Shown piece by piece: positions 14,946-38,435 of a stretch of 60,546 nt of DNA. The first letter of the stretch is position 1, and each line of letters begins with the position of its first letter. The position numbers and the translations under genes were made by a program. The stretch lies in IMG/VR virus record IMGVR_UViG_3300028024_000009, positions 1 to 60,546 of that record, one strand, 5' to 3'. A model generated the notes under the pieces. The model had not been told where the DNA came from, made no database searches, and was given only the letters and a program-made list of their open reading frames with translations. The DNA is from a virus. Its lineage: Duplodnaviria; Caudoviricetes.

Positions 14946-15113
14946 ATGGCAGACGAAGCGACCAGGCAGCACTACCGGTATGCCACCGGCTCGGGGGGGC
15001 TCGACAAAACCCCCGCGAAAACAGCCGGAACTCCCGGCTTTCGCAAGGGCGGGACCGTCCGCAAGCAGGCCGGAGGCTCCACGTACCGCAAGGGCGGGAA
15101 GCCCAGTAAGTAA
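14946..15113 (+). CDS. Small basic protein with three xxxGG motifs (55 aa; not in ORF track)
   Basis: GAGGAG RBS; MADEATRQHYRYATGSGGLDKTPAKTAGTPGFRKGGTVRKQAGGSTYRKGGKPSK. Confidence 0.7.
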   Translation: MADEATRQHYRYATGSGGLDKTPAKTAGTPGFRKGGTVRKQAGGSTYRKGGKPSK

Positions 15114-15148
15114 CCTGGGCTTTGCAGCCGACCGGAGACAGTGGTAGT

Positions 15149-15361
15149 ATGGCACCCCTCGAACCCGACAAGTATCTGAGAAAGCTTCGAGAGCTACGCC
15201 AAAAACATGCCTGGGAATCCACGACTAGCCCGCAACTCTCGAGCCGATTCAATCTCGGCGAAGCGTATGCGTATGTCTTGGGTTTCCAGGCGGGTTTGGA
15301 CCAAGCAGAGAAGCTCGTACACGAGATACTGACCGCATTAGAGAAGGACTTTAGCGAATGA
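15149..15361 (+). CDS. Hypothetical helical protein
   Basis: GGAG RBS, coupled to the GroES-like gene. Confidence 0.6.
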   Translation: MAPLEPDKYLRKLRELRQKHAWESTTSPQLSSRFNLGEAYAYVLGFQAGLDQAEKLVHEILTALEKDFSE

Positions 15362-15792
15362 GCGCTCGAATCATCCCCATCCTTGCTTACGGATCTCTCG
15401 AAGAGGCATACCCGGATGTAGATCCGGAGTTTCGCTGTTTCGGGAATCGCGTGTGCGTCCAGCTCCGGACGCCGAAGAACATGACAGCCGGTGGAATAGC
15501 TCTCCCCGAGACAGCCGCTCTCGAAGAGTTCGCCCAATGGAATACGCAGATCGCAAAACTCATTTCGGTGGGTCCGGTCGCATTCCGTGATCGCGATACT
15601 CTCAAGCCGTGGCCGGAAGGGGATTGGGCAACCCCCGGTCTGTTCGTCCGCGTTCCAATGCACGGAGGCGACCGCTGGTGGAAGCCAGTGCCGGGTCGAA
15701 CGGATCATCGGGCTCTCTTCGCCGTCTACCAAGACGTTGATCTGAAAGGCGAGTACACCGGCGACCCGCTGAAGATCGACGCATTCCTCTGA
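15358..15792 (+). CDS. GroES-like co-chaperonin
   Basis: 'GNRV.V....P...TAGGIALPE' mobile loop and 'ISVGP'. Confidence 0.85.
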   Translation: MSARIIPILAYGSLEEAYPDVDPEFRCFGNRVCVQLRTPKNMTAGGIALPETAALEEFAQWNTQIAKLISVGPVAFRDRDTLKPWPEGDWATPGLFVRVPMHGGDRWWKPVPGRTDHRALFAVYQDVDLKGEYTGDPLKIDAFL

Positions 15793-15802
15793 GGAAACCC
15801 AC

Positions 15803-16849
15803 ATGGCGAAAGAAGATCAGAAAGAAGACGAGAAGCTCGTCCCGGTCGGGGATAGCGTCGAGACTTCTGAGAAAGAAGAAGAGTCGAAGAAACCAGCGAA
15901 ATCCGCCGCTGACGAAGACTCGGATGAGAAGGTTGGACATGCGGAGGAGGCCAGCGACGACGAAGAGGACGACGAAGAGGGTGAGGTCAGCCCCGAGCGT
16001 CAGAGGATCCGCGAACGTCGCAAGCGCGAGAAACTCAACCGACAGCGTCGGATCAGCAGCGACCGGCGTGAACTCGACTTCCTGCGCAAGCGGAACGAGC
16101 AGGTGGAGCAGGAACTCTCGAAGGTTCGGCTGCGTCAGGATAAGGTTGAAGATGCCTCCGTCGATGGTCGAATCGGGATTCTCGAGGGTCAGATTCGAGA
16201 AGCCGAGGAGATACACGGCAAAGCGGTCGACGCGAAGGACGGTGCGACCGCGACCGAGGCTCTCAGGGTCCGCGATCAGCTCCGGGACGCACTCGGGCAG
16301 CTGAAAGGCGGAAAGGAGACTCGACAGAAGGAACGTAAGGAGGAGCAGCAGCGAGCGGCTCAGGCCGACAGCGCTCCTGACACCGAAGCCGTGATTCTCG
16401 GGCGCGAATGGGTCAGTAAGAATGGATGGTTCGACCCGAAGCTCGGAGATGAAGATTCGTTCCTCGTTCGTGCGATTGAGGAGCGCATGGCCCGAGAGGG
16501 TCGGCTCGATCCTGCCACCCCTGAGTACTGGGAGGAGTTTGATCGTCGCATCGACAAGAAGTTTCCCAATCTCCGCAAGGAGAAAACGGCCAAGGACGCC
16601 GACGATGAAGACGTCGAGTGGGATGAGGACGACGAGAAGCCCCAGAAGAAGACTCCGGAGAAGAAGCGAGGTGGCCCTCGCATCGCGATTGGAGGTAAGA
16701 CTCGATCCTTGAAACCGAACGAGGTTTACCTCAGTGAACAGAGAATCCAAGCTTTGAAGGAAGCGGGTGTCTACGACGACCCCGAGAAACTTCAGAGATA
16801 TTTGAAAGCCTACAAGCGCTATGATGAAGAAGCGCTTCGTAACAGCTGA
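15803..16849 (+). CDS. Capsid scaffolding protein (probable)
   Basis: Acidic N-terminus, long coiled coil and 'W..KN.WF', upstream of the capsid genes. Confidence 0.7.
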   Translation: MAKEDQKEDEKLVPVGDSVETSEKEEESKKPAKSAADEDSDEKVGHAEEASDDEEDDEEGEVSPERQRIRERRKREKLNRQRRISSDRRELDFLRKRNEQVEQELSKVRLRQDKVEDASVDGRIGILEGQIREAEEIHGKAVDAKDGATATEALRVRDQLRDALGQLKGGKETRQKERKEEQQRAAQADSAPDTEAVILGREWVSKNGWFDPKLGDEDSFLVRAIEERMAREGRLDPATPEYWEEFDRRIDKKFPNLRKEKTAKDADDEDVEWDEDDEKPQKKTPEKKRGGPRIAIGGKTRSLKPNEVYLSEQRIQALKEAGVYDDPEKLQRYLKAYKRYDEEALRNS

Positions 16850-16870
16850 AACTCGCTGAAGGAGTGAGTG

Positions 16871-17482
16871 ATGGCACGTCAAGTTAAGAGAGATGCAGTC
16901 CTCGGCCGAAAAGGAACGATTCGGAGAGAGCGTACCGCGACCAGCGAACGCTCCAAGAGTCGTGAGATGTCGGATGATGAGCGCGTCGATATGTTGAGGA
17001 TGTCGTTTTTCCAGTCAGCCCTTCCGGATTTGCCTCAAATCGAGGGTTACCATGTTTGCTGGCTTACGACGAACAATTCGCGTGATCCAATCATCGGACG
17101 AGAGCGTCTCGGCTATCAGCTGATCCGGGCATCCGAACTCCCTGAGTTCGAGTTCCCGTCGCAGAAGGGTGGTCAATACGATGGTTGTATCATGGTGAAT
17201 GAGATGATTGCCGCGAAGATTCCGCTGCGTCTCTATCAGCGGTTCATGGCGAACAACCATCATCAGGAACCTCTCCGCGAGGAAGAGCGAATTGCGTACG
17301 ACAATCAGGCCAAGAAGGCTGATGCTGCATCTCATGGTGGCGTTCTGATCGAGGCACCCGCGATGGTTGCACTGGGCAAGGACCCCGGTACTCCCAACTT
17401 CACGGCTCCTCCGCCCTCTTCTTTACCGATGTCTCCTAACCAGAAATTCGATGAGGATTGGTCGGATTACCGTCCGGAGTAA
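16871..17482 (+). CDS. Conserved head-module protein
   Basis: 'LP.I.GYH.CWL...N..D.I..R..LGY', between scaffold and capsid genes. Confidence 0.65.
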   Translation: MARQVKRDAVLGRKGTIRRERTATSERSKSREMSDDERVDMLRMSFFQSALPDLPQIEGYHVCWLTTNNSRDPIIGRERLGYQLIRASELPEFEFPSQKGGQYDGCIMVNEMIAAKIPLRLYQRFMANNHHQEPLREEERIAYDNQAKKADAASHGGVLIEAPAMVALGKDPGTPNFTAPPPSSLPMSPNQKFDEDWSDYRPE

Positions 17483-17525
17483 GTGTGCTCGGGGGTTTGT
17501 TCCGTTCCACGAGGAGTAAGCCCTC

Positions 17526-18155: not shown

Positions 18156-18178
18156 CGAGAGTCTGAAGGAGAAAAGAA

Positions 18179-19108: not shown

Positions 19109-19109
19109 A

Positions 19110-19245
19110 GAGTTCGGGGGGTTCCCAACCGCGAGTCTCGGCCGGGCGTCGTAGACTTTCGGGAGGAGGGCCCCCCGACCTTCCAAGGCGAGATCCGGAG
19201 GTAAACGGGTCTCTAATCGATCCGTAGGCAATCGGATCATCCTTT
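19110..19245 (+). promoter_or_regulatory. Structured element downstream of MCP (possible Mu-gpT-DE-like RNA or attenuator)
   Basis: Stems TCGGGGGG/CCCCCCGA, GAGATCC/GGGTCTC and GATCCG/CGGATC in a 148-nt spacer. Confidence 0.45.
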
Positions 19246-19256
19246 AGGAGAATTCT

Positions 19257-19970: not shown

Positions 19971-19973
19971 TCC

Positions 19974-20848: not shown

Positions 20849-20857
20849 GAGAATCCC

Positions 20858-21229
20858 ATGAAAGGCTTCAAGAACTCAACCCGGATGCGTTCGGGTTTCA
20901 CCTACCCAACCTCGGCGGGCTTTACCACTTCGACTGGCAAGGTGCAGAATATCTCATATTCTCGCAAGACTCCCCGTCGAGGGCCGGCCAAGTTCGCCGA
21001 GGGGGGGCAGATCGATTCATCGCTGCATTCCTTCAAAGGCGACAGTCAACTGAATGTCGAGCACGGGCCAAGCGGGGGGCTTCGACCGGGATTCACCAGA
21101 GGGGGTTATGCCGCCAAATATGCGAAGGGAGGCCAGATCCCTTCGGCAAAAGTTGCCGCTCGGGAAGCGGTCGCAAAGCATGTGGCGACCCCGGCTCCGA
21201 AAGGTCACAAAGGCCTGAAGAGTTGCTAA
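20858..21229 (+). CDS. Basic internal-protein-like with FAEGG/FTRGG/YAKGG motifs
   Basis: AGGAG RBS, K/R/G-rich. Confidence 0.7.
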   Translation: MKGFKNSTRMRSGFTYPTSAGFTTSTGKVQNISYSRKTPRRGPAKFAEGGQIDSSLHSFKGDSQLNVEHGPSGGLRPGFTRGGYAAKYAKGGQIPSAKVAAREAVAKHVATPAPKGHKGLKSC

Positions 21230-21336
21230 TCCGCCACAGCTAGCGTAGTATCCCGGGCTGGTAACGGTCCGGGATCTCTCCTTCACCTAAGCCGGCTGCA
21301 CAAAGTAGGCTGTCAACATGCTCCGAGAAGGCATCG

Positions 21337-22392: not shown

Positions 22393-22394
22393 CC

Positions 22395-24657: not shown

Positions 24658-24669
24658 AAGGAGATCGAG

Positions 24670-25399: not shown

Positions 25400-25404
25400 G
25401 TCCC

Positions 25405-26064: not shown

Positions 26065-26065
26065 C

Positions 26066-27667: not shown

Positions 27668-29197
27668 ATGTACACCCCAACCCTCATTCGCTCGCAACCG
27701 GGGATCAAACGGGACGGAACCGAGTTCGAAGGCGATTTTTACACGGACGGGCAGTGGTGCCGATTTCAGCGTGGGCTGCCGCGTAAGATCGGCGGTTATC
27801 GGAACACCACCCCCCGACTGCGCGAGAAAGTCTACGGGATGTCATCGTTCTCCGCTGACCTCCTAAACTATGTCGCTTGTGGTGAGGGAAGTTTTCTCGA
27901 GCAGGTGTCCATCGACCAGAACGGCAACCCGACCGCGATCTCTGATCGCACTCCAGTCGCATTCGTGCCGAACGTGAACAATGTCTGGCAATTTGCGAAT
28001 CTCCCGAGTGCGGTCGCCTCAGCGACTGACTTGATCGCGCACGGAGCCCCGAATCTCGCGGATATCGCTAATCAGACTTCGACTCAGATCTGGTACGGCC
28101 AAGCCGACCTCGGAACTCCGCTAGTAGCTACGGGGCTCGATCCCCAGAGCGGCGGGGCGTGCGCTATCGGTCCGTACCTCTTCGGTTATGGCAATGCGGG
28201 CTTCGTTCAGTGGACGGCGCCGAACGATCCCACGACGTTCCAGAACGAGGCGAGGGTGACAGGCCAGAAGATCGTTTACGGTCGCGAGTTGCGCGGCGGG
28301 GGGAACGGCCCCGCTGGAATCTTCTGGTCCCTCGATTCTCTGCTTCGAGCCACATTCATCGCCGGAGTGACTGATCCGGCCGCAGACCCAGTCTTCGCGT
28401 TCGATACACTGGCAAGTGATCTCTCGATTCTCTCGTCCCGGGGAGTCGTCGAATACGACGGTGTCTACTACTGGTGGGATACCGGTCGCCCCTTGATGTT
28501 CAACGGTGTCGTGCGCGAAGTGCCGAATACCATGAACATCAACTACTTTCTGGACGGACTGAATTTCTCGCAGCGGCAGAAGATCTTCGCGATGAAGGTT
28601 CCTCGGTTCGGGGAGATCTGGTGGTGCTATCCTCGAGGCAATGCGACCGAGTGCACTCACGCCATCATCCTAAACGTGAGGGAGAACACGTGGTATGACA
28701 CGGAGCTTCCGCCGTCGATGCGAACCTCCGGAATTTACGCATCTGTCTACCCGAAACCGTTCATGACCGATGCGACGGAGTCACCCACTGGATTCGGCTT
28801 ATGGCAGCACGAGACGGGGGTCGATGAAGTCTCTAGCTCGCTAGTCAACCCAATCCCCTCGTTCTTCCAGACAGCGGATATCGCCATGATGACTACTGAG
28901 AAGCCGACCAATCAGAGTCTAAGCGTGGCAGTGATCGAGCCCGACTTCGTTCAAGTGGGGAACATGACCGTTACCGTCACAGGTAAGGCGAACGCTCGCG
29001 CTCCGATCCAGGAGAGTGCGGCCAAGACGTTCGTCCCGGATACGGGGTCTCTCACTGCCGATGAGCAGATTGTAAGACTCAAGGAAGAGCGACGTGAGCT
29101 GCGGTTTAAGTTCGAAACGAACACTCCGAATGGCGACTACCAGATGGGCCAGCCTCTCGTGCACCTCGAACCGACCGACTCGAGGGTGACCACATGA
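27668..29197 (+). CDS. Tail nozzle / DNA-stabilisation protein (P22 gp10-like)
   Basis: 'PGI.RDGT', 'RF..GLP.KIGG', 'FGEIWW.YP...ATEC...II.N..EN.WY', 'EPDF'. Confidence 0.8.
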   Translation: MYTPTLIRSQPGIKRDGTEFEGDFYTDGQWCRFQRGLPRKIGGYRNTTPRLREKVYGMSSFSADLLNYVACGEGSFLEQVSIDQNGNPTAISDRTPVAFVPNVNNVWQFANLPSAVASATDLIAHGAPNLADIANQTSTQIWYGQADLGTPLVATGLDPQSGGACAIGPYLFGYGNAGFVQWTAPNDPTTFQNEARVTGQKIVYGRELRGGGNGPAGIFWSLDSLLRATFIAGVTDPAADPVFAFDTLASDLSILSSRGVVEYDGVYYWWDTGRPLMFNGVVREVPNTMNINYFLDGLNFSQRQKIFAMKVPRFGEIWWCYPRGNATECTHAIILNVRENTWYDTELPPSMRTSGIYASVYPKPFMTDATESPTGFGLWQHETGVDEVSSSLVNPIPSFFQTADIAMMTTEKPTNQSLSVAVIEPDFVQVGNMTVTVTGKANARAPIQESAAKTFVPDTGSLTADEQIVRLKEERRELRFKFETNTPNGDYQMGQPLVHLEPTDSRVTT

Positions 29198-29421
29198 TCG
29201 ATCCCACCTTCATGGAAGCCGTCGAGTGGACCGATCGGATGGCGATGCTGCTTCCCCGAATCCAACCGATCAAGATCAATCGGGAGGAGGATTGGAAAGC
29301 GTGGGCTCGGCACGTTCTCCAGTCGGCGGAGATTTCGAGACACAATCCTCCCAACCCTGAGGCCTTCTCCGACTGGAGAGAGTGGGCCTCTCGTTTTAAT
29401 GAGACGGTTCCAACATTATGA
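29194..29421 (+). CDS. Small conserved tail-region protein
   Basis: Trp-rich 'W..WA...P.P..F.DW.EWA', coupled on both sides. Confidence 0.65.
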   Translation: MIDPTFMEAVEWTDRMAMLLPRIQPIKINREEDWKAWARHVLQSAEISRHNPPNPEAFSDWREWASRFNETVPTL

Positions 29422-30779
29422 GTATCCTGCGCCATCTCGCCCGTCGTAAGTTCGCCCAGGGTGGAGATTCCCGAGTTACGCTAAATGATCCGTACCTCAC
29501 GGGGATGTCGGATCCTCGACCGAATCTCCAGACCTCGGGGGACTCCTCCGCCGGTGGCCGACAATACCATCCGATGGCCGAGGATGCGTACTACACCTAC
29601 GGGCAGACCGGAGGGGAGCATCAGTTCTTCACGGGCAAGTTGCCCGTAGCTCCCCTGAAACCCAACAACCTCCCTTCGGGCGGGGGCGGTTCATCCGGAG
29701 GGGGCGGTGGGGCTGGGGTGCTCGGAGATCTCGTACAACTTGCGGGAGCTGCGAAGAATGCCGGCGCGCTTGCGAATATGGCCGGTATCGATAATCAGTA
29801 TACCCAGGCGATGCAGAATCCTATTGGGGCCCTAAAGGATGCGTATGGGAACTACCAGCTGAACAACAACGTCGGTTCGGGTCAATACGCGAACAACGCT
29901 CTCAACGATGCGGGATACGGTTCGAGCTGGACGACTCCGGCTCTCACGGGTCTCGGAGCGGCCGGCGCAGCCTCGACCGGTCTCGGAAGCGGCGTGACGG
30001 CAACGATCACCCCTGAACTGATCGGGGAAGGTGCGGCGGGTGCGGCTGGAGCTGCCGGCGCTGGTGCGGGTGCTGCCGAGGTCGGGTCGGCTGCAGGAGC
30101 AGGCTCAACGGCCGGTGCCGGGGCTGCTGGAGCGGGTGCCGGAAGCTCCGGGCTCGGCGCGACGCTCGCCTCAAGCGGGATCGCCACCGCATTGCCGATT
30201 GCCGCCATCGGTTGGGCTGTCGCCGATGCGGCCAATAAGTCCGGGGACATCAAATCGGGAGCAACCTCCGATCTGCTGAAGTCACTTCAGGGGAGCGGAT
30301 TTATCACTCTGATGGATCCTCGGACGCAGACCTACAAGCTCGCAGACGGTCGGATGGTGCGTGCAGACCAGGGAGCCCGTGCGGTCTCTGAAGCGCTCCG
30401 AAAGGGGGATCAGGCGGGAGCGCAGGCTGCGTTCGAGGCGTGGATCAATGGAGCGAAATCTCCGGGAGGTCATGCTTCGGGGGGTCGATCGTTCGAGACG
30501 GGCAAGCCCGGAGTGCTCGCCTACGCGACTGACCCAAAGTACGTCGGGCCCGTTCGGGGCAAAGGGACCGGGAGATCGGATGAGATCCCCGCCCGTCTTT
30601 CGGACGGTGAGTACGTGATGGACGCCGAGACGGTTGCGATGCTCGGTGATGGCTCGACGGATGCTGGCGCAAAGAAACTGGATGAGATGAGAGCGCGGTT
30701 GCGATCTCACAAGGGTAAGAAGCTTGCTCAAGGCAAGTTCTCCGATAATGCCAAAGACCCGATGGAGTACGTCAAGTGA
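29418..30779 (+). CDS. Internal/ejection protein with tape-measure-type C-terminal domain
   Basis: G/A-rich hydrophobic core and 'G.GTGRSD.IPARLSDGEYV..A.TV..LG.GS..AGA..L'. Confidence 0.75.
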   Translation: MSILRHLARRKFAQGGDSRVTLNDPYLTGMSDPRPNLQTSGDSSAGGRQYHPMAEDAYYTYGQTGGEHQFFTGKLPVAPLKPNNLPSGGGGSSGGGGGAGVLGDLVQLAGAAKNAGALANMAGIDNQYTQAMQNPIGALKDAYGNYQLNNNVGSGQYANNALNDAGYGSSWTTPALTGLGAAGAASTGLGSGVTATITPELIGEGAAGAAGAAGAGAGAAEVGSAAGAGSTAGAGAAGAGAGSSGLGATLASSGIATALPIAAIGWAVADAANKSGDIKSGATSDLLKSLQGSGFITLMDPRTQTYKLADGRMVRADQGARAVSEALRKGDQAGAQAAFEAWINGAKSPGGHASGGRSFETGKPGVLAYATDPKYVGPVRGKGTGRSDEIPARLSDGEYVMDAETVAMLGDGSTDAGAKKLDEMRARLRSHKGKKLAQGKFSDNAKDPMEYVK

Positions 30780-31789
30780 GCAGCGGAGTTCTCGGATTTC
30801 TCTTCGACGGGAAACCCCCGCCATCGGTCACCACTTACGGCTCGACTACGTCGAATGTTCCCCAGTGGATGAGCGATTACACCCAGGGGGTCCTCAATCA
30901 GGCGAACGCGGTCGCCGGACAGGATTATCAGCCGTACGAAGGACCGCGCATTGCGGGCTTCTCTCCGGAGCAGCAGCAAGCCTTCCAGTTGGCTGAGGGG
31001 AACGTCGGTAGCTGGTATCCCGGGGTGACCGGGGGGATGAACCAGACCCAGGGAATCCTCGGTCAGCTGACACCCACTATCGGTCAGAATCTTCAGACAG
31101 CGGGGGGAACGTTCACGGGTGCGAATGTCGATAAGTACATGAACCCGTACATTCAGAACGTCACGAAGCAGGCTCAGAATCTCGCGAATCGAAATTTCAA
31201 CGAGAATTTGATGCCGAGCATTCAGAACACGTTCACGCGTGCCGGGCAGTACGGCTCTACGCGCATGGCGAACGCAGTCGGCAATGCGGCTCGAAACACC
31301 TCCGAAAGTCTGCAATCGGCGGCCGATGCCTCTCTCGCGCAGGGATACAATACTGCGGGTCAGATGTTCGGAGCGGATGCGAGTCGGGCCGGCATACTCG
31401 CACAGCTCGGAGTGCAGTCCGGACTGACGGGAGCTAATCAGATGTCCGCGCTCGGTGAGACACTCAGCCGACTCGGTCTCAGCGACGCTGCTACTCTGGA
31501 GAATATCGGGCAGCAGAAGCAAGGTCTGCAGCAGAAGAGCCTCGATCAGGCGTACTCGGACTTCACCGCTCAGCGCGACTATCCGAAGCAGCAGACCGAC
31601 TGGCTATCGAACATCATTCGAGGCATCCCGAACTCGGCAGTTCCGACGAGCACGACGCGAACGGAGACGGGCCCGTACCAAGGGGACATGCAGTCGGGTC
31701 TCGTAGGCTCGCTGGGCTCACTGCTCTCCCTCTGGCAAGGCATTCAGAAAGATACTGGTACTCCCGCAGCTACCACCAAGCAGCCCTAA
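30776..31789 (+). CDS. DNA ejection protein
   Basis: Q/N/G-rich; 'YQPYEGPRIAGFSP.Q' and 'YMNPY'. Confidence 0.75.
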   Translation: MSSGVLGFLFDGKPPPSVTTYGSTTSNVPQWMSDYTQGVLNQANAVAGQDYQPYEGPRIAGFSPEQQQAFQLAEGNVGSWYPGVTGGMNQTQGILGQLTPTIGQNLQTAGGTFTGANVDKYMNPYIQNVTKQAQNLANRNFNENLMPSIQNTFTRAGQYGSTRMANAVGNAARNTSESLQSAADASLAQGYNTAGQMFGADASRAGILAQLGVQSGLTGANQMSALGETLSRLGLSDAATLENIGQQKQGLQQKSLDQAYSDFTAQRDYPKQQTDWLSNIIRGIPNSAVPTSTTRTETGPYQGDMQSGLVGSLGSLLSLWQGIQKDTGTPAATTKQP

Positions 31790-31802
31790 TTCGGAGACGA
31801 CG

Positions 31803-34800
31803 ATGGAAGACGATGAACTGGATCAAGACTCGGTCGGGACGCTCGGTGCGATCCGTGACCAGCTTGGGGAATTGGTTGATCCGTCGACTACCCTCGAGGC
31901 GCAGGGTTACGCTCGGAAGTTCCTTGACAAACAGCTAGCCTCCCCTCTGGGCACGACCCAGAAGGAAATTTTGACTCAAATGGAGAAGGAGTCGAAAGCG
32001 GCACAAGAAACGCTGAGGGCTGCGCGCGAGAAATTACTGGCTCGTCGGTACAACCCGGCCGATAAGTGGTACACTCTCGCCAAGGCCCTCGGCGCCCCTA
32101 CTCGGGTCGGCGGCGTCGGGGAGCTGGCATCACGAGCGGCGGGTGCTCTCGGGGAGTCCCGTCAGCGTCAGGAAACCTTCGATGAGACCCAACAGAAGGA
32201 AGCGCTCGGCTACGACAAGGATATCTCCGGGCTGGGAATGGATCTTCTCAAGCTGAAGTCCGCTGTTGGACTTTCGCAGGGCAAGATCGACGCCCAGCTT
32301 GCCCAAGAGGCTCTCAAAACCCTGGGAAAGAGAGTTAACTCGCAGCAGACTGGGGTGGATAAGGCGCAGCAGGCTCTCGACCGCGCTTACGCTCCCGAGT
32401 ACCTCGATTGGGTTCAGAACGGTTCCTCGGTCGCGAATAAATCCCTCAGCGAACTGGCACAAGCCCGCGACCGGTTGAGAGGCTATCGAGAAGGGCCCGA
32501 CGGTGAGAAAGTTCCGATCAGCGAAGGCGATTTCGCCACGCGGCAGCTCGGACCGACCGGTCCCGTCATCGGTTCGGTGGCGACGGTTCCGTTTGTCGGC
32601 AAGGCAATTCAGGACGTACTCGCTCCGGGGTCGGCGGACATCCGCGAGCTAGTCGAGTCGACCGTCCAATCCTCCCTGAGACCGATTCTCGGAGCGCAGT
32701 TCACGGAGAAGGAAGGCGAGCGACTCATCTCTCGCGTATACAACCCTCGGCTGCGACCAGAAGTCAACGCCGCGCGTGTCGGCCGTCTTCTGCAGCAGGT
32801 GCAGACCGCTGCCGCGAACAAGACAGCCGCTGCGAAATACTACGAAGCCAACGGGACCCTCAAGGGCTTTACGGGGAAGTTCAAATACACCATCGACGAC
32901 TTCATGCCGGCGGCGACCAACGAGCTGGCCCCCCATAGCTCACAACCCCAAACGCATGGAACGGATGACTTCGGGCATGCGTATGATGGGCCGCCGAATC
33001 CCTACGCCGGGACGGCCGAGGAGAATACGGCTCCCGCCGGCGGTGGCCCACGGACCTTCGAAGGCAAGAAAGTCATCAGGCTGCAAGATCTCCCAAAGAG
33101 GGGGTTTGCTGAGGGAGGCGCGGTCGGGGCTCCAGACCCCGATACTGACCAGGTTATGGTCGAGCTTCCGGACGGTCGGATGATCCCGATGCCGGCTAAT
33201 GCGACCCAGGAGGACGTCCAAGCAGCTATGGGCGGGGGGGATAGCGCCGGGGCATACGATCCCGCCATGTCGCGCACGGCATTGGCCGGATTGGGTGCTG
33301 GAGCGGGGTATGCGGGGGGGAAATTGCTCTCGGGCTTGGGCTCGTCCGTATCCGACCTTAGGCCGGGCAATAAGGAAACCCCGGCGCAAGCTCGACTGTT
33401 AAGATTGATGGAGCGCTCGAAACTGCCGCCGCAGCAGATCACGCAGTTCCAGCGTCGCTTCGGCCGTCTCGGCGTGCCGACGATGCCCTTCGACTTCGAC
33501 CCGAATCTGCGAGCGGTCACTGAAACCGCGCTCCCTCAGGGGGGAGCCGAGTCCGTTGATATGATGGATCGGTTGAAGGCTCGTCAGGCCGAGGCTCGCG
33601 CTCGTGCTCTCGAGCAAGTCAATAAGGGACTCAAGCCGGACGATTACTTCGATAAGGAAGAGGAAGTTAAGACTAAGCTGTACGGCAATCGCGCGAAGCA
33701 GATCGAGTCTGAATCGGGCCCATTGTATCGAGCGGCGTTCGATGCCAACCCAGCGGTCGCATCGGCGCAGCTCGGAAAGCTGATGGATACTCCCAGCGGT
33801 CAGAAGGCCGTCAAGAACGCAATGAAGACGATGAAGGATAAGGGGATTCCCATCGGTAAAGTCAACCAGGTGACCGGGGCCGTCATGAAGCCCTCCCTGG
33901 AATTCCTCAACCAGGTTAAGATCGAGATGGACAATCTCGTCGGAGCCGCGAGAACGGCCGGTAAGGACGCGAAGGCTCGAGACGTCGGTAATCTGCGAAC
34001 TTCGTTCCGCAACGAACTCGACACGGCCACGACCGATCCGGCCACCGGCACATCGCCTTATAAGGAGGCCCGGGGAGTCTACGACGAGCGCAAGGCCCAG
34101 CTCGATGCGCTCCAAAGCGGTCGTGAGAATTTCGGTCGCATGCAACCCCAAGAGGTCTCGCGGGCCGTGGCCGGGATGAACTTCGAGCAGAAAGACGCGT
34201 TCCGGACGGGCGTGGCTCAAAGCATTCGCCAGATGCTCGAGACTCCCTCAACCGATATCAACGCAGCCAAGCGACTGATTGGTTCGCCGGCGATGTCCGC
34301 GAAACTCGAAGCACTGTTCGATAGTCCCCATGAGTTCGAGGTCTTCAAGACCGCGCTCAATAAGGAGGTCGAGACGTTCGAGAACTCCCAGAAGCTCCTG
34401 AATCGCGAGACGACAGTACGCCAGCGGGGAGCCGAGCCCCCGAAGAGCCGTATCGAACGGGGAGCTGAGAAAGCCCCCGCACTCGGCGTCTTCTCTCCCA
34501 CCCATTGGGCTCTCAAGATCCTGCGCAGCAAGCCGGAGATGAAACCCGAGGAGGCGTCCGAGATCATCAAGCTGATGAAATCCTCCACCCCTGAGGAAAT
34601 CACCGCGTTCGATAAGGCTCTCGGAAACAAGTTCGGTCGCGCGGCAGCTCGCAAAACCCGAGGCAGTCGAATGGGGATGGCGGGAGCGGCTTTAGGAGCG
34701 CTCACCGGAGCTTTGACGGGCGGCAAGGAAGAAGAGGAGCCCGCCCCTCAGGACGACGCGATCCTCAGTGGTCTTACGCCCGAGGAACGGGAGATGGCCT

Positions 34801-35333
34801 TGCGTCCCGCGAAAGCGAAGGGCGGCAAGATCGAAGCGGTCAAAGAGCTAGTCGAGGATCTAAAATCGCGCATGGCGAATATGGATCTCCAGCAAGTGTC
34901 CGATCAGATCAGTAACATTGCGGTTAAAACGGGTCAGCTTCCTCACGATATCTGGAAGATGATCTCGGATAAGCCGTTTCCAGGCGCGCAAGGCCCCGAT
35001 CTGTCTCGAACGGCTTCTGCGGCACCGATCACTCAAGTGCCGGCACAGCCCGAGCGGTTGGCGCCGTTCGCCCGGTCGATGGATTTCGAAAAGGCTCGCC
35101 TTGATGCGATCCGGCAGTCTATTGTCAATTCTCAAGGGATGAACCCCGCTCAAGCAAAATCGCTACAGCCAGTCACTTCCGCAGCTGACATGGCTTATCA
35201 GCGAATGATGAGCGACCCGACTTATGAGAACATGCAGCACCTCTCCGAGCTAGTCCGAAATCTCCAGCTGCAATCGAAGCGCCGAGGGGGCCGGATCTCC
35301 CGGCAATTCGGGGGCATGACAAATCATGGCTAA
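31803..35333 (+). CDS. Large internal virion/ejection protein
   Basis: 1176 aa, helical, located after the ejection genes. Confidence 0.7.
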   Translation: MEDDELDQDSVGTLGAIRDQLGELVDPSTTLEAQGYARKFLDKQLASPLGTTQKEILTQMEKESKAAQETLRAAREKLLARRYNPADKWYTLAKALGAPTRVGGVGELASRAAGALGESRQRQETFDETQQKEALGYDKDISGLGMDLLKLKSAVGLSQGKIDAQLAQEALKTLGKRVNSQQTGVDKAQQALDRAYAPEYLDWVQNGSSVANKSLSELAQARDRLRGYREGPDGEKVPISEGDFATRQLGPTGPVIGSVATVPFVGKAIQDVLAPGSADIRELVESTVQSSLRPILGAQFTEKEGERLISRVYNPRLRPEVNAARVGRLLQQVQTAAANKTAAAKYYEANGTLKGFTGKFKYTIDDFMPAATNELAPHSSQPQTHGTDDFGHAYDGPPNPYAGTAEENTAPAGGGPRTFEGKKVIRLQDLPKRGFAEGGAVGAPDPDTDQVMVELPDGRMIPMPANATQEDVQAAMGGGDSAGAYDPAMSRTALAGLGAGAGYAGGKLLSGLGSSVSDLRPGNKETPAQARLLRLMERSKLPPQQITQFQRRFGRLGVPTMPFDFDPNLRAVTETALPQGGAESVDMMDRLKARQAEARARALEQVNKGLKPDDYFDKEEEVKTKLYGNRAKQIESESGPLYRAAFDANPAVASAQLGKLMDTPSGQKAVKNAMKTMKDKGIPIGKVNQVTGAVMKPSLEFLNQVKIEMDNLVGAARTAGKDAKARDVGNLRTSFRNELDTATTDPATGTSPYKEARGVYDERKAQLDALQSGRENFGRMQPQEVSRAVAGMNFEQKDAFRTGVAQSIRQMLETPSTDINAAKRLIGSPAMSAKLEALFDSPHEFEVFKTALNKEVETFENSQKLLNRETTVRQRGAEPPKSRIERGAEKAPALGVFSPTHWALKILRSKPEMKPEEASEIIKLMKSSTPEEITAFDKALGNKFGRAAARKTRGSRMGMAGAALGALTGALTGGKEEEEPAPQDDAILSGLTPEEREMALRPAKAKGGKIEAVKELVEDLKSRMANMDLQQVSDQISNIAVKTGQLPHDIWKMISDKPFPGAQGPDLSRTASAAPITQVPAQPERLAPFARSMDFEKARLDAIRQSIVNSQGMNPAQAKSLQPVTSAADMAYQRMMSDPTYENMQHLSELVRNLQLQSKRRGGRISRQFGGMTNHG

Positions 35334-38142
35334 GGGAAGCAAAGTATCGACTCTTGACGCGGCCCTTCAGTACGTCAAGAACAAGCTGCCGCAAACGGGC
35401 TTCTTCTCTACCCTGGACGAGCTGATCGGACAAGCTCCGTTCGAGAAGGCCCCGTTCGAGCAATGGCAGAATTATCTCAAGCCCGGCCGCACGTTCGAAC
35501 GCGAAGGCGTCCGCTTCCCCCTGAAACAGGAGGAACTAGATTATACGTTTGGTCATCCCCATGCCCAAGACCCCCACGGGGACATCTATCGTTCCCCTGA
35601 CACGGTGATGACGAAGGACGAACTGCGGGATTGGATTCGGGAACTGCGTCCGGATTTCTCATTGAAAGTGGGGGCTACCAGTCCAACTGGAGCTGCTCGA
35701 CTCAAAGACCGCTTCCCGGAGGAGTGGGAACTTGGCTATCAGAATAATCCAGATGCCCCCCTGGAAGAGGTGCGAGCAGTTCTCCCTCGGGTGGATACTG
35801 CGAGATATGGAAGCTATGCTCACGAGACCGAGTCCCCGCACTCTTATGAAGAGAGCGCAACCCGCTCGACTGATTTTGGCCCCACAAATCACGCCGACCA
35901 TTTCGGACCGGATGTAATCTCACACTCGCGTACGACGATTCAACCGACCCTGGTCAGTCCGAATACTGCCGATATGGAGGTCAACGAAAGCAGCGGCGAT
36001 GTTCGACAGCGCATGATGCGCTTGATCGAGGAGATTCAATCGGATCGCCATCAAGCTGCGGCCGAAAGGGTTCCGATAGAGATAGAGCAGTTGCGGGCCG
36101 TAGCTACTCCTGAAGAACTAGAAAACCTCGATGAGATCAGGGGACGTCCAGGGCCTCTGGGGGCCGACTGGGATGAGATCTCGGAGAAGCTCAAGGGACG
36201 AATTCCTCCCCAACGTCGAGGTTATCGGACCCCCGGACTCGAGGAAGATTTAAGACGGAGAATCAACGAGCTAGTTGAACAATCCCCAAACTCTCAGTCC
36301 CTGGACAGTCCCGGATACAAAGAATTCCTGCGTAAATGGACTCCCCTGAATGAGGGGATCTTACGGGAGATGAATGCCGTTAATGACGCACCCTTCAAGA
36401 ATCCGGCCGATTATGGACTTCTCGAATTGAAGATGCAAATGTTGAATGCCGCTAAGCAAGGACAGGACTACCTCGGGCTAGTTCGTGGTAAGGATGTCTC
36501 TGATCGTTTCTCGCAAGATGCGGGGGAAGCCGCGGGAACCTCACACATCTACGACAAGGTTTATCCGTCGGTCATGCGCAAGCTCGCGTCACAGTACGGC
36601 GCCGAAGTTCGCGACGTTCCGACTACCCTCAAATCGAGCATTGATGTCGCTACTCCTAGCATGCGAGATCTGAATCAGGAAACTATCTCAGATGCTGTCA
36701 GGATGTCTCGAGATATGGCTGACGATAGTTCAGACCCGGATGAGTATATCAACGCGCTAGATCATCTGCACGGAATCAAGGAGGAGCTGAAAGACCAAGA
36801 CCCCCACTTCGCAAAGAAGGTGGATGAGCACCTCGGGACTCTCTATAAACTGTATGATGCCGCGGTGACGGATCCTGAGATTGCGACGTCTCTAGGCCCC
36901 AAAATGGACGATGCTTGGGAGCTTCTCTCATTCAACTTGAATCAGCTGCACTTGAAATATGCTAAACAGAAGCGATTGGCCGCTGGAAGTTCCAAAGAGA
37001 ACAAGGCATTCCCGTCAATGGTATTGTCCCCCGAGGTTCGCGACCGAATCCTCAAAGCAGGAGTTCCGATTTGGGGTATGTCGGGGTTGACGGCAGGCGC
37101 GCTCGCGGGGCTCGGAGCGAATCAGGAAGAGGAGGGATTTGCCGACGGTGGAAAAGTCAAAGCGGTGATCGATGCCATCAAACGTTTCGCGCCGATGAAA
37201 GCTGAACGCGAAGAATTTCGAGCTGTCTCAGGGGGTCCGAACGCTACGCTGAAATCGTTGAGGGCGGCGCTCGAGGCTGGGCAAGCGAAACGAGACCAGC
37301 TGAAAGAGGGGATGGAAGAGACTCGACCGGACTGGATGGGACCCGTGGATAAGGCCGAGGGGGGCGAAGTGGGCGGAATCGATAGACTCAAGCAATTAGC
37401 TGAGAACGTCGGAACGGAAGACACCGTTGACCGACGCAAACGCATTCTCTCAGGGATGGCATCGCAGCTCTACGGCGTCAATCCGGACACGAACGAAGTC
37501 GAGCTGTTCGGGGGCATGTCGCTCTTGCCGAAGATTCGGTCGATTGACGAGGTTCGGGATCGCTACAAGCACTACGCCGAGACGGGCGAGGTCCCGCAGG
37601 ACGGGGGCCCCGGGCTCTTCGATGAGGTGCAGTCGATGTTCCTCGGTTCGGATCGCGCGAGCGAGGCGGATGCTCGACTCGCAGCCCTGAAGTCGCAGAT
37701 CAAGGAGAAGATGGGAATTGCAGAGCCTCAGGGGTTCCAAGAGAACTTCGACGAGGCGCTCGGTACGATGCTGGGTCAGCTCCCGGTCCCCGTCAGCCGG
37801 GGCAAGGCGGCCATCGAAGCGGCCACGAAACTCGAAAAGCTGAAGCAGATGCTGAAGGTAGCCCCCAGCGCCGTGGCCGAGTGGCTCACTCCGACCGTCG
37901 AGGCGAGCCCGGCGAACTATCTGATGGGAGCAACCGTCGGGGGCGGGCTCGGAACGCTGGCTGACACACCCCCTGAGATCGAACGGCCGATCAAGAAAGC
38001 CGAGGGAGGATCGGTCGAAGCCATCAAGCCCCTGCATGCTACCCTCGAAATGTGGAAGTCTCGGCTCTCCGAGCTGAGTTCTTCGCTTCCCTCCACACCG
38101 TCGTTCGGTGGTAATCTCGGTTTACAATCTCTGGATGAATAG
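35326..38142 (+). CDS. Large internal virion protein with polyvalent-protein-type 'EEIQSD.HQ' domain
   Basis: 'HF....I.H.R', 'IEEIQSDRHQ', 'APFK', 'AA..G.D' and 'YDK..P'. Confidence 0.7.
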   Translation: MAKGSKVSTLDAALQYVKNKLPQTGFFSTLDELIGQAPFEKAPFEQWQNYLKPGRTFEREGVRFPLKQEELDYTFGHPHAQDPHGDIYRSPDTVMTKDELRDWIRELRPDFSLKVGATSPTGAARLKDRFPEEWELGYQNNPDAPLEEVRAVLPRVDTARYGSYAHETESPHSYEESATRSTDFGPTNHADHFGPDVISHSRTTIQPTLVSPNTADMEVNESSGDVRQRMMRLIEEIQSDRHQAAAERVPIEIEQLRAVATPEELENLDEIRGRPGPLGADWDEISEKLKGRIPPQRRGYRTPGLEEDLRRRINELVEQSPNSQSLDSPGYKEFLRKWTPLNEGILREMNAVNDAPFKNPADYGLLELKMQMLNAAKQGQDYLGLVRGKDVSDRFSQDAGEAAGTSHIYDKVYPSVMRKLASQYGAEVRDVPTTLKSSIDVATPSMRDLNQETISDAVRMSRDMADDSSDPDEYINALDHLHGIKEELKDQDPHFAKKVDEHLGTLYKLYDAAVTDPEIATSLGPKMDDAWELLSFNLNQLHLKYAKQKRLAAGSSKENKAFPSMVLSPEVRDRILKAGVPIWGMSGLTAGALAGLGANQEEEGFADGGKVKAVIDAIKRFAPMKAEREEFRAVSGGPNATLKSLRAALEAGQAKRDQLKEGMEETRPDWMGPVDKAEGGEVGGIDRLKQLAENVGTEDTVDRRKRILSGMASQLYGVNPDTNEVELFGGMSLLPKIRSIDEVRDRYKHYAETGEVPQDGGPGLFDEVQSMFLGSDRASEADARLAALKSQIKEKMGIAEPQGFQENFDEALGTMLGQLPVPVSRGKAAIEAATKLEKLKQMLKVAPSAVAEWLTPTVEASPANYLMGATVGGGLGTLADTPPEIERPIKKAEGGSVEAIKPLHATLEMWKSRLSELSSSLPSTPSFGGNLGLQSLDE

Positions 38143-38144
38143 TC

Positions 38145-38435
38145 ATGCCAAGTAAGTCAGACAAGCAGCACCGCTTGATGGAAGCCGTCAAACACAATCC
38201 GAAGTTCGCGAAGAAGGTCGGCATTCCGCAATCGGTCGGAGAGGATTTCGTAGCGGCCGATAAGCGGACGGGCCGCTATGCTCGGGGCGGTAGCGTGCTA
38301 AAGGCGCTTTCAAGCCCCCGGAAGCCCGTTATGCGTCCGATCCCGGACGTACGGAGCCCCGCCGAGGAGCTACGCTCCGCAGACCGTGCTATTGCGGGGG
38401 CTCGCGACCGCTTTAAGAGGATGAGAGGGAGTTAA
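38145..38435 (+). CDS. Conserved small basic phage protein
   Basis: 'MPS.S.KQHR.M.AV.HNP.FAKKVGIPQSVG.DF..AD', plus YARGG. Confidence 0.8.
   Translation: MPSKSDKQHRLMEAVKHNPKFAKKVGIPQSVGEDFVAADKRTGRYARGGSVLKALSSPRKPVMRPIPDVRSPAEELRSADRAIAGARDRFKRMRGS

What the first reader, a model, noticed from the sequence alone, without database searches (positions are those of the whole stretch)
14946..38435. Recurring [F/Y/K/H/R]-x-x-G-G motif in six otherwise unrelated internal virion proteins: candidate maturation-cleavage or packaging signal
Seen, about 16 copies counted by eye. 14946: FRKGGTV, KQAGGST, YRKGGKP. 20858: FAEGGQI, FTRGGYA, YAKGGQI. 29418: FAQGGDS, HASGGRS. 31803: FAEGGAV, KAKGGKI, KRRGGRI, RQFGGMT. 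35326: FADGGKV, KAEGGEV, KAEGGSV. 38145: YARGGSV. In the large proteins the motifs fall at apparent domain boundaries. I did not notice the motif in the replication proteins. Established: di-glycine sites are cleaved by adenovirus and ASFV maturation proteases, and FAxGG is common in tape-measure proteins next to the 'SDxIPAxLSxGEYV' domain, which 29418 carries. No canonical prohead protease is visible here. Inference: a polyprotein-processing or capsid-loading code, possibly read by the 29418 C-terminal domain.
Basis: partly seen in the sequence, partly recalled or inferred. Interest (0 to 1): 0.8.

Follow-up and report, generated by a model that had tools for sequence, protein, structure and literature searches.

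The report
Gly-Gly junction tag on phage cargo
A short peptide ending in two glycines really does mark the joints and ends of the proteins this uncultured phage probably packs and injects; the same tag sits where one phage tail protein is known to be cut, so it may be a "cut here" mark, but no cutting is shown here.

Summary
All 16 listed copies are present. The sharpened motif [FYK][ART]xGGx[VI] occurs 10 times in the six ORFs (0.07 expected from shuffles) and 0 times in the other 77 ORFs or any other reading frame.

The window is a near-complete uncultured phage genome. The tag lies at module boundaries of its large late proteins. In 8 orthologues of the 35326 protein every alignment-block boundary carries a tag, and each inserted module brings a further one. 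The tags are abundant in only one clade of relatives.

It is the same peptide that precedes the widely conserved GxGTGxSDxIPAxLSxGE[FY]V segment of tape-measure proteins, which 29418 carries.

Two mapped cuts lie next to such a peptide: T5 pb2 (VPR|AEGG) and, in a different register and with an atypical sequence, P22 gp7 (YPE|KGGKGG, host OpdA).

My best reading (about 0.4) is a processing site at module joints, read by a host peptidase rather than a phage one. An uncut handle or hinge is nearly as likely. The idea that the 29418 C-terminus reads the tag is not supported.

This scan reported the same tag before, in 16 findings on other DNA.

The parts
14946..15113 (+). 55-aa basic ORF with FRKGGTV (15039-15059), KQAGGST (15063-15083) and YRKGGKP (15084-15104). 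Its gene status is uncertain.
   Evidence: Translation and motif positions. No homologue in 5 related genomes. No family hit.
20858..21229 (+). 123-aa basic small protein in the head-gene block with FAEGGQI (20993-21013), FTRGGYA (21092-21112) and YAKGGQI (21119-21139).
   Evidence: Relatives have a small tag-bearing ORF at the same place, upstream of the 351-aa ORF, in L003, L010 and L019. BLASTP to the L019 ORF gives E 3e-7.
29418..30779 (+). 453-aa protein resembling the C-terminal part of a tape-measure protein. It has a 12-aa N-terminal leader followed by FAQGGDS (29451-29471), then a long Gly/Ala-rich hydrophobic stretch (about 29679-30249), then HASGGRS (30471-30491).
   Evidence: sequence. 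PHROGs tape-measure families match residues 375-411.
30549..30776 (+). Widely conserved C-terminal 76 aa of the 29418 protein: GKGTGRSDEIPARLSDGEYVMDAETVAMLGDG followed by a basic helix.
   Evidence: 8898 cluster representatives at E<=1e-3 and 2510 at E<=1e-10, at 70-79% identity and mostly C-terminal. Match to mycobacteriophage Douge TMP gp16, E 8.7e-07. AlphaFold2 scores the core below pLDDT 50.
30776..31789 (+). 337-aa protein of the 'DNA ejection protein' family. It has no tag in the window, but its orthologues in L006, L012, L019 and L022 end in tandem tags.
   Evidence: phrog_4287, E 4.3e-16. Orthologue C-termini.
31803..35333 (+). 1176-aa fusion protein. Tags: FAEGGAV (33105-33125) at the joint between the N-terminal module and the phrog_5880 module, KAKGGKI (34812-34832) after that module, and KRRGGRI (35277-35297) plus RQFGGMT (35301-35321) at the C-terminus.
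   Evidence: BLASTP HSPs end near residue 370 and restart at 466-536. 6 of 6 fused orthologues have tags at this joint. Caulobacter phage GB2A has the two halves as separate genes without a tag.
35326..38142 (+). 938-aa modular protein. It starts MAKGSK, a decayed tag. Further tags are FADGGKV (37138-37158), a ~67-aa insert closed by KAEGGEV (37351-37371), and KAEGGSV (37996-38016).
   Evidence: Alignment A2 of 8 orthologues shows tags at all block boundaries.
38145..38435 (+). 96-aa protein with a conserved 43-49-aa N-terminal module followed directly by YARGGSV (38277-38297).
   Evidence: phrog_16759, E 2e-20, on residues 1-43. The same module followed by a tag occurs in L035 (472 aa, tag at 56) and L010 (288 aa, tag at 54).
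27668..29197 (+). Conserved 509-aa virion structural protein that marks the start of the late cargo block. I used it as the anchor to fetch relatives.
   Evidence: phrog_3287, E 1e-22. At least 598 related IMG/VR loci. 48% identity to Caulobacter phages GB2A, RW, RLK and KcrB.

Best explanation
The motif is a portable 7-9-residue tag: often a basic residue, then F/Y/K/M, A/Q/R, any residue, G, G, any residue, V/I/L. It marks the joints and some ends of exchangeable modules in the proteins this phage most likely packs in its particle and injects. It is the same peptide that precedes the GxGTGxSDxIPAxLSxGE[FY]V segment near the C-terminus of tape-measure proteins. Up to here the statement rests on sequence analysis.

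The proposed mechanism is inferred, at about 0.4. The tag is a processing site. The chain is cut just before the small residue, between positions -3 and -2 relative to Gly-Gly, as in T5 pb2. This separates modules that were made and loaded as one chain and trims short leaders. The enzyme would be a host peptidase, with P22 gp7 and OpdA as the precedent, or an unrecognised activity. It would not be a phage prohead protease, and it would not be the 29418 C-terminal segment. The cut could happen before assembly, or after the unfolded chain has been ejected into the next cell.
For: Shown here:
- Enrichment and frame specificity in the window.
- Replication in a second complete genome. In G001, 13 of 13 six-frame hits lie in coding frames: 11 in four late cargo ORFs, 1 in the small ORF, 1 in a 567-aa ORF, and 0 in the other 92 ORFs.
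- In 80 related loci the tag density is 1.10 per 1000 aa downstream of the anchor gene against 0.23 upstream, at equal GG density.
- Junction rule in 8 orthologues of 35326. All four block boundaries carry tags. Inserts in 4 proteins each add a second tag. The 4 proteins with a C-terminal extra module have KA[EK]GGK[VI] at that joint.
- The Gly-Gly is kept only where something is attached upstream. 3 of 3 orthologues with an N-terminal extra module read KAKGGK. The 5 without one read AKGS, AKKG, PKGS, AKKG and PKKQ at the same place; four of them start at that Met, and P0153 has 14 further residues upstream in its gene call.
- 6 of 6 fused 31803-type orthologues carry tags at the fusion joint, and the split forms carry none there.
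- Specific flanking residues are conserved while the codons vary, which argues for sequence-specific recognition.

Precedents:
- T5 pb2 is cut after R1127 (passage in PMC10038345). The T5 sequence reads NSFVPR|AEGGMMYPG.
- In lambda gpH the cut site and the catalyst are unknown and about 14 kDa is removed (passages in PMC12617516). FATGG lies 120 residues from the C-terminus.
- P22 gp7 loses 20 residues to host OpdA, and the sequence reads SYPE|KGGKGG (record note, sequence, passage in PMC4992974).

Absence of a phage protease:
- No protease family was found in the window's ORFs.
Against: - No cleavage is shown for any protein of this phage or its relatives. No proteomics exists for the tag-rich clade, which has no cultured member.
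- The two mapped cuts differ in register: T5 is cut between -3 and -2, P22 between -2 and -1. The P22 sequence is not a canonical tag.
- T5 pb2 and lambda gpH C-termini show no significant pairwise similarity to each other (E 16). Lambda shows none to the window's segment (E 0.15). The link to them is at motif level only.
- Tags 3-10 residues from a C-terminus (MLKAVGGAV*, RKYAQGGLVS*) or 3-8 residues from an N-terminus (MKYQEGG) would release almost nothing if cut.
- From recalled knowledge, OpdA-type oligopeptidases act on short peptides, so internal joints of 1000-aa proteins would need another enzyme or an unfolded substrate.
- The junction rule and the decay of Gly-Gly in unfused forms fit an uncut hinge equally well.
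- The fused, tag-rich genomes form one clade, so the counts 6 of 6 and 3 of 3 represent few independent events.
Confidence: 0.4

Rival explanations
1. Uncut address or docking handle. The tag is a short linear motif bound by a common partner (portal, scaffold, tail lumen or another cargo protein). This loads each module into the particle or holds the cargo chain in order for ejection. Nothing is cut.
For: - Copies at the extreme N- and C-termini and tandem copies 8-9 residues apart (KGGRVRRRFQEGGPV; three in a row before GPGTGRSD in L006) suit binding and avidity better than cutting.
- The tag marks only particle-associated late proteins in two complete genomes.
- The conserved GE[FY]V segment also looks like a linear segment that would fold on a partner.
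- Different segments of the crAss001 cargo protein gp45 bind the portal and the tail barrel (passages in PMC10172136). That paper does not mention the tag.
- One earlier scan finding (e1-5358440) favoured this reading.
Against: - An address tag should be kept whether or not a module is fused. In the 35326 family the Gly-Gly is lost in 5 of 5 orthologues without an upstream module and kept in 3 of 3 with one.
- Close relatives such as Caulobacter phage GB2A load homologous proteins with no free-standing tags, and most clades have 0-2 copies.
- No partner has been identified.
Confidence: 0.3
2. Passive joint. The tag is a favoured linker made of a Gly-Gly turn and the cap of the following helix. 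It lets neighbouring modules fold, unfold and thread through the tail one after another, with no protein that reads it.
For: - It lies at module boundaries, and each insert adds one copy.
- It is often followed by an amphipathic stretch, as in GGSVEAIKPLHATLEMW, GGKIEAVKELVEDLK and GGIARLRQLAENVG.
- The Gly-Gly decays where no module is attached upstream.
Against: - A passive hinge does not explain the conserved aromatic or Lys at -3, Ala or Gln at -2 and Val/Ile/Leu at +2 across distant phages.
- It does not explain the tandem copies or the copies at chain ends.
- It does not explain the coincidence with the mapped T5 cut.
Confidence: 0.15
3. [quoted passage not shown]
For: - The pattern of a bulky residue three positions before Gly-Gly resembles the adenovirus consensus (recalled, not tested).
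- 29418 carries the conserved segment that accompanies the tag in tape-measure proteins.
Against: - No cysteine protease or any other protease family is found in the window's ORFs.
- The 29418 segment is not predicted to be a globular domain, and no enzyme family matches it.
- The mapped cuts in T5 and P22 lie before the Gly-Gly, not after it.
- The conserved head ORF 16868 folds confidently (pLDDT 80) but matches no solved protease fold. Foldseek best E is 0.59, and VIA-align best Z is 5.6 on a helical hairpin only.
Confidence: 0.05

Closest known systems
Cut site of phage T5 tape-measure protein pb2 (after R1127; Linares et al. 2023, PMC10038345, passages read)
   Same: The sequence at the cut is VPR|AEGGMMYPG: a bulky residue, then A-x-G-G and hydrophobic residues. 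It follows a hydrophobic Gly/Ala-rich stretch and precedes a GE..V-like patch (MGEHGTEVV), the same order as in the 29418 protein.
   Different: - pb2 has one tag in a long-tail ruler protein. Here there are 16 copies in six ORFs of a phage with no recognised tail tube or sheath gene.
- No significant pairwise similarity to pb2 was shown: pb2 against lambda gpH gives E 16.
- The catalyst in T5 is unknown.
GxGTGxSDxIPAxLSxGE[FY]V module of tape-measure proteins (mycobacteriophage Douge gp16, PDB 8zdo; Pseudomonas phage JBD30 gp46, PDB 8rk3; lambda gpH C-terminus)
   Same: - 29418 carries the module, with E 8.7e-07 to Douge gp16.
- In those proteins the tag sits 5 residues upstream: YAGGGFLSGPGTGRSD and FASGGHIKGPGTGTSD.
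- 102 of the 124 best library hits that match the core have a tag-like peptide within 30 residues upstream.
   Different: - In the window the tag next to the module has decayed (KYVGPVRGKGTGRSD), while free-standing tags have spread to other proteins.
- The module is unresolved in both solved tails (passages), so its role is unknown.
- Pfam and NCBIfam models do not hit 29418.
Leader removal from P22 ejection protein gp7 by host oligopeptidase A (Conlin, Vimr and Miller 1992, cited in PMC4992974; GenBank BK000583 note)
   Same: An injected protein of a short-tailed phage is trimmed by a host enzyme immediately before a Gly-Gly peptide (SYPE|KGGKGG). 29418 likewise has a short basic leader before its first tag, MSILRHLARRKF-AQGG.
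   Different: - The register and sequence differ from the canonical tag.
- There is a single N-terminal site and no module joints.
- 30776 has no detectable similarity to gp7, and 27668 has none to gp10.
- I did not read the 1992 paper itself.
Capsid targeting sequence of T4 internal proteins (IPI-III, Alt) and the polyvalent or cargo proteins of phages (Iyer et al. 2017; crAss001 gp45/gp46, PMC10172136). T4 and Iyer are recalled; passages of crAss001 were read.
   Same: Packaged, injected, modular proteins with a short shared peptide. One orthologue of 35326 carries a tag-flanked insert that resembles ADP-ribosyltransferases by language-model features (score 0.92, a lead only), as T4 Alt does.
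   Different: - The T4 signal is strictly N-terminal and is removed by the phage prohead protease at L/I-x-E. Here most copies are internal and no such protease is found.
- Polyvalent proteins are thought to carry their own peptidase domains, and none is seen here.
Adenovirus and ASFV di-glycine maturation sites (recalled)
   Same: A Gly-Gly preceded by a bulky residue three positions earlier, in several core proteins of one virion, including small basic ones.
   Different: - Those sites are cut after Gly-Gly by a virus-encoded cysteine protease.
- No such enzyme is found here, and the two phage precedents are cut before the Gly-Gly.

Membership tests
Tape-measure-type tag + GE[FY]V module | Core segment GxGTGxSDxIPAxLSxGE[FY]V present | tested here: met
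   29418 residues 381-400 read GKGTGRSDEIPARLSDGEYV. phmmer against PDB sequences hits Douge TMP gp16 at E 8.7e-07, with two stretches. PHROGs TMP families match residues 375-411.
Tape-measure-type tag + GE[FY]V module | [FY]AxGG tag a few residues upstream of the core | tested here: inconclusive
   The window has KYVGPVRG at that place, with no Gly-Gly, and HASGG lies 26 residues upstream. The closest library hits share this decayed form, for example DPKFNGSVRG.
Tape-measure-type tag + GE[FY]V module | Curated model match (Pfam or NCBIfam lambda-type tape-measure C-terminus) | tested here: not met
   No Pfam family at E<=5 for the 136-aa piece and none at E<=0.01 for the whole protein. No NCBIfam family at E<=0.01.
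Tape-measure-type tag + GE[FY]V module | The protein acts as the length ruler of a long tail | tested here: inconclusive
   No tail tube or sheath family was recognised among the late ORFs, and 29418 is only 453 aa. Absence of hits does not prove the tail is short.
T5 pb2-type cut site | Bulky residue, then A-x-G-G-hydrophobic | tested here: met
   12 copies of [FYK][AR]xGG in the six ORFs against 0.81 expected. The T5 site reads R|AEGGMM.
T5 pb2-type cut site | The chain is actually cut there | not testable with these tools
   No proteomic data exist for this phage or for its tag-rich clade.
Adenovirus/ASFV-type Gly-Gly maturation | Virus-encoded cysteine protease of the adenain or SUMO-protease type | tested here: not met
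   Pfam at E<=0.01 on 83 window ORFs gave no peptidase family. PHROGs and NCBIfam gave none on the head and late ORFs.
Adenovirus/ASFV-type Gly-Gly maturation | Consensus (M/I/L)-x-G-G|x (recalled) | tested here: inconclusive
   Position -3 is F, Y, K, H or R in the window. M occurs there in relatives.
T4-type capsid targeting sequence | Strictly N-terminal and removed by a prohead protease (recalled) | tested here: not met
   Only 1 of the 16 window copies lies within 15 residues of an N-terminus. In relatives 6 of 94 do, against 4.6 expected by chance. No prohead protease family was found.
P22 gp7-type leader | Short N-terminal leader ending just before a Gly-Gly peptide | tested here: met
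   29418 reads MSILRHLARRKF-AQGG, against P22 gp7 with a 20-aa leader followed by KGGKGG. This is a resemblance only, with no sequence homology.
P22 gp7-type leader | Removal by host oligopeptidase A | not testable with these tools
   The host is unknown and no expression data are available.
Polyvalent / cargo polyproteins | Chain of exchangeable modules in a particle-delivered protein | tested here: met
   Alignment A2 shows modules inserted, added or missing between orthologues, always at tags. 31803 is a fusion of two proteins that are separate in GB2A and many loci. Delivery itself is inferred.
Polyvalent / cargo polyproteins | Embedded peptidase domain for self-processing (recalled from Iyer et al. 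2017) | tested here: not met
   No Pfam family at E<=0.01 in 31803, 35326 or seven orthologues.

The most novel reading that the evidence does not exclude
One tag, read by a host peptidase, is the common 'cut here' mark of tape-measure proteins and of injected cargo proteins across long-tailed, short-tailed and crAss-like phages. If so, it would:
- predict the unmapped lambda gpH to gpH* cut, before A734 of FATGG or before A779 of YATGG;
- explain how T5 pb2 is cut;
- mean that cargo 'polyproteins' are loaded as one chain and released as separate effectors, possibly only after ejection into the next cell.
Probability: 0.25. Interest if true: 0.8.

Novelty: new variant of a known kind. Interest (0 to 1): 0.6.

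Why it matters
- Lambda tail protein H has been known to be cut during assembly since the 1970s. A 2025 structural paper still states that the site and the catalyst are unknown (PMC12617516). A sequence tag shared with the one mapped site (T5) gives a precise prediction that ordinary mass spectrometry and point mutants in laboratory phages can test.
- How short-tailed and crAss-like phages load, order and release injected proteins is largely unknown. A portable tag that delimits every module would be a rule for reading these giant 'hypothetical' proteins. It would also be a practical handle for loading foreign proteins into phage particles.
- If the tag turns out to be only a linker, the finding is still a useful annotation rule for module boundaries.

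Tried and rejected
- Complex prediction of the 29418 C-terminal piece (alignment A1) with the 20858 protein returned no answer. The score was 0.00 against a mark of 0.32, and the controls were not run. This is not evidence either way.
- megablast of the late region against GenBank phages found no match.
- I searched for a hidden protease. Pfam, PHROGs and NCBIfam found none.
- The conserved head ORF 16868 has invariant His and Cys, so I modelled it (pLDDT 80). It matched nothing in the PDB by Foldseek (best E 0.59), and VIA-align matched only a generic helical hairpin (best Z 5.6). The ESM Atlas gave only unnamed viral clusters.
- 15803 reads as a charged helical scaffold by composition.
- I tested similarity to phage P22. 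27668 against gp10 gives E 1.3 and 30776 against gp7 gives E 0.97. I therefore dropped the label 'P22-like'. Three distant database records call the 27668 homologue a 'stabilization protein'.
- I looked at Pseudomonas phage Pa223 (Bruynoghevirus) as a possible experimental system. It has no tag enrichment in its late proteins; only one small ORF has MAEGGPI.
- Tags are not over-represented at chain ends in relatives: 6 of 94 lie within the first 15 aa (4.6 expected) and 13 of 94 within the last 40 aa (12.3 expected).
- I rejected a DNA-level repeat because of the synonymous codon variation.
- Literature searches for the strings FAxGG, YAxGG, FAEGG, FATGG, YAEGG and YQEGG gave 34 papers, and none of the 25 listed concerns phages. 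Searches on internal virion or ejection protein plus glycine motif, and on tape-measure processing, found no description of the tag.
Fig. S5G and Table S3 of the T5 paper, which hold the mass data for the cut, were not seen.

Full report
**What the window is**

The 60,546-base window is a whole IMG/VR virus record. It is linear and estimated 98% complete.

The plus strand up to about 38.9 kb encodes the following:
- ThyX, a MazG-like pyrophosphohydrolase, the large terminase and a portal (phrog_1216).
- A charged helical scaffold-like protein (15803) and a Mu gpT-like major head protein.
- A tail-fibre-like protein and a conserved structural protein (27668, phrog_3287).
- A block of large late proteins: 29418, 30776 (phrog_4287, 'DNA ejection protein'), 31803 (phrog_5880), 35326 and 38145.

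The minus strand carries replication genes: PolA fused to a UDG domain, an SNF2 helicase, a PD-(D/E)XK nuclease, dCMP deaminase and others.

No tail tube, sheath or long ruler gene was recognised.

The nearest cultured relatives are Caulobacter phages GB2A, RW, RLK and KcrB, at 48% identity in the 27668 protein. There is no nucleotide-level match in GenBank phages. I found no detectable similarity to P22 gp10 or gp7, so I do not call the phage P22-like.

That the six ORFs are internal or ejected proteins is an inference. It rests on gene position, size and the phrog_4287 and virion-protein hits.

Yes.

| Pattern | Six ORFs (2841 aa) | Expected from shuffles | Shuffles reaching it | Other 77 ORFs (15,934 aa) |
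|---|---|---|---|---|
| Sharper [FYK][ART]xGGx[VI] | 10 | 0.07 | 0 of 2000 | 0 |

I defined the sharper pattern after looking at the data.

All 10 six-frame hits of the sharper pattern in the window lie in the coding frames of the six ORFs. Codons at the sites vary synonymously, so selection acts on the peptide.

The loose pattern does occur in a few replication proteins. The 55-aa ORF 14946 has no homologue in 5 relatives and may not be a gene.

**Replication in relatives**

At least 598 IMG/VR loci encode a homologue of the 27668 protein, and 80 were kept.
- Over those 80 loci, [FYK][ARTQ]xGG occurs at 1.10 per 1000 aa in ORFs downstream of the anchor gene and at 0.23 upstream. GG density is equal, at 13.5 against 13.0.
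- In the complete genome G001 (63,910 bases), 13 of 13 six-frame hits of a slightly wider pattern are in coding frames. Eleven are in four late cargo ORFs, 1 is in the small ORF homologous in position to 20858, and 1 is in a 567-aa ORF. None is in the other 92 ORFs.
- The trait is clade-limited. The other 25 rows have 0-2 copies, except L046 with 4.
- Caulobacter phage GB2A has only two copies, both in its 29418 homologue.

**Anatomy: the tag sits at module joints**

BLASTP shows that 31803 is a fusion. Its N-terminal part (to about residue 370) and its phrog_5880 part (from about 470) are separate proteins in GB2A and in many loci.
- The 6 fused orthologues (window, L003, L010, L012, L019, L035) all carry one or two tags in the joint. 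A basic run precedes the tag and an acidic, low-complexity run follows it.
- The split forms carry none there.

An alignment of 8 orthologues of 35326 is the clearest evidence.
- Tags stand at every block boundary.
- The window and P0157 have an extra ~70-aa module after [FY]ADGG, and that module is closed by a second tag.
- P0153 and P0154 have an extra 140-190-aa module after MA[ED]GG, again closed by a second tag.
- Four proteins with an extra C-terminal module have KA[EK]GGK[VI] at that joint.
- The three proteins with an extra N-terminal module read KAKGGK at its joint. The five without it read M-A/P-K-(G/K)-(S/G/Q) at the same place, without the Gly-Gly; four of them start at that Met, and P0153 has 14 further residues upstream in its gene call. 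The Gly-Gly is thus kept only where something is attached upstream.

38145 and its longer relatives in L010 and L035 share a 43-49-aa N-terminal module followed directly by a tag.

Tandem tags 8-9 residues apart are common in relatives. So are tags a few residues from chain ends, although these are no more frequent than chance predicts.

**Link to tape-measure proteins**

29418 has three parts in this order: a 12-residue leader before FAQGG, a long Gly/Ala-rich hydrophobic stretch, and GKGTGRSDEIPARLSDGEYV followed by a basic helix.

The last 76 residues are widely conserved.
- There are 8898 cluster representatives at E<=1e-3 and 2510 at E<=1e-10, at 70-79% identity.
- Of the 124 best hits that match my core pattern, 105 have the core near the C-terminus, 114 have a Gly-Gly within 30 residues upstream, and 102 have a tag-like peptide there.

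The segment matches the tape-measure proteins of mycobacteriophage Douge (E 8.7e-07, two copies) and, weakly, Pseudomonas phage JBD30. In both, the tag sits 5 residues upstream. The region is not resolved in either solved tail (passages).

Lambda gpH has FATGG, GIVHRGEFVF and YATGG after a hydrophobic stretch. T5 pb2 has AEGG and MGEHGTEVV after one. Pairwise BLASTP does not show homology among T5, lambda and the window. Those links are therefore at motif level only.

**The 29418 C-terminus as 'reader'**

With a 34-sequence alignment AlphaFold2 gives mean pLDDT 61. Only the flanking helices are confident, and the conserved core scores below 50. No family model matches it. It looks like a second conserved linear segment rather than a domain that could bind or cut the tag.

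**Precedents for cutting**

- An earlier finding of this scan (e1-6000541) pointed me to T5. I checked it. The paper states that pb2 is cut after R1127, and the sequence is NSFVPR|AEGGMMYPG. The cut is between positions -3 and -2 of a canonical tag.
- For lambda, a 2025 paper states that about 14 kDa is removed from the Gly-rich C-terminal region and that both site and catalyst are unknown. FATGG lies 120 residues from the end, which fits roughly.
- I then recalled that P22 gp7 is trimmed by a host enzyme, and I checked that too. The GenBank record says the N-terminal 20 residues are removed by host OpdA. The sequence is SYPE|KGGKGG. A 2016 paper repeats the statement and cites Conlin et al. 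1992. That site is not a canonical tag and the register differs by one residue.

**Protease search**

No peptidase family was found in 83 window ORFs or by PHROGs and NCBIfam on the head and late ORFs. The conserved head ORF 16868 folds well but has no recognisable protease fold. If the tags are cut, a host enzyme or an unrecognised activity must do it.

**Weighing**

- The junction rule, the loss of Gly-Gly in unfused forms and the T5 site favour a function at joints, which means either cutting or hinging.
- The conserved flanking residues favour specific recognition.
- The copies at chain ends and in tandem favour binding.

The evidence is comparative only. The fused, tag-rich genomes are one clade, so the counts reflect few independent events.

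**Relation to earlier findings**

This scan has reported the same tag 16 times in at least 15 other genomes, mostly marine short-tailed and crAss-like phages. This report adds:
- the size and conservation of the accompanying GE[FY]V segment;
- the clade-limited spread of free-standing tags;
- the rule that each insert brings its own tag;
- the decay of Gly-Gly in unfused orthologues;
- the P22 gp7 precedent;
- a negative result on the proposed reader domain.

I found no published description of the tag in the searches.

Noticed in passing
window 14003-14293 (+): A 96-aa ORF between the portal and head genes matches the Acb2/Tad1 hairpin domain (PF24729, E 4.8e-15, above the curated cut-off). 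It is a likely sponge for cyclic-nucleotide immune signals.
   Followed up: no
window 15358-15792 (+): A 144-aa ORF just before the scaffold-like gene gives a borderline Cpn10/GroES match (E 4e-4; 20.8 bits against a cut-off of 21.1). It may be a phage co-chaperonin in the head module.
   Followed up: no
window 7824-8189 (+): A 121-aa ORF matches the 'KGG' stress-protein repeat (PF10685, E 1.5e-17). This is a different Gly-Gly motif, in an early or metabolic region.
   Followed up: no
window 45569-48094 (-): The family A DNA polymerase is fused at its N-terminus to a uracil-DNA glycosylase superfamily domain (E 2.5e-32). The genome also has ThyX, a ThyA-like ORF and dCMP deaminase, which may hint at unusual nucleotide metabolism.
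   Followed up: no
window 16868-17482 (+): This is a widely conserved ~200-aa head-region protein: 481 homologues, with invariant H62, C64, W65, N70, D73, N111, E112 and H131. It has a confident model (pLDDT 80) but no match to any solved fold. Its function is unknown.
   Followed up: yes
protein P0154 residues 818-1008 (orthologue of 35326 from another record): A tag-flanked inserted module resembles ADP-ribosyltransferase clusters (PF03496) by language-model features: score 0.92, 166 shared features, which is borderline. Pfam on the whole protein found nothing. The N-terminal extra modules of P0152, P0156 and P0157 were not identified.
   Followed up: partly
window 15803-16849 (+), residues ~287-300: The scaffold-like protein has a tag-like basic Gly-Gly stretch (PEKKRGGPRIAIGGKTR) near its C-terminus.
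   Followed up: no
related loci, e.g. L014 11759-13129 and L040 11774-13111: In a large subclade the 29418 homologue starts with two tags (MFAKGGR and MAKGGLA) followed by GVGGDELIIHINRxEY. This looks like an N-terminal variant of the tag + GE.V module.
   Followed up: partly
window 55657-56226 (-): A 189-aa ORF has a C-terminal DnaJ (J) domain (E 8.4e-11) in the replication block.
   Followed up: no
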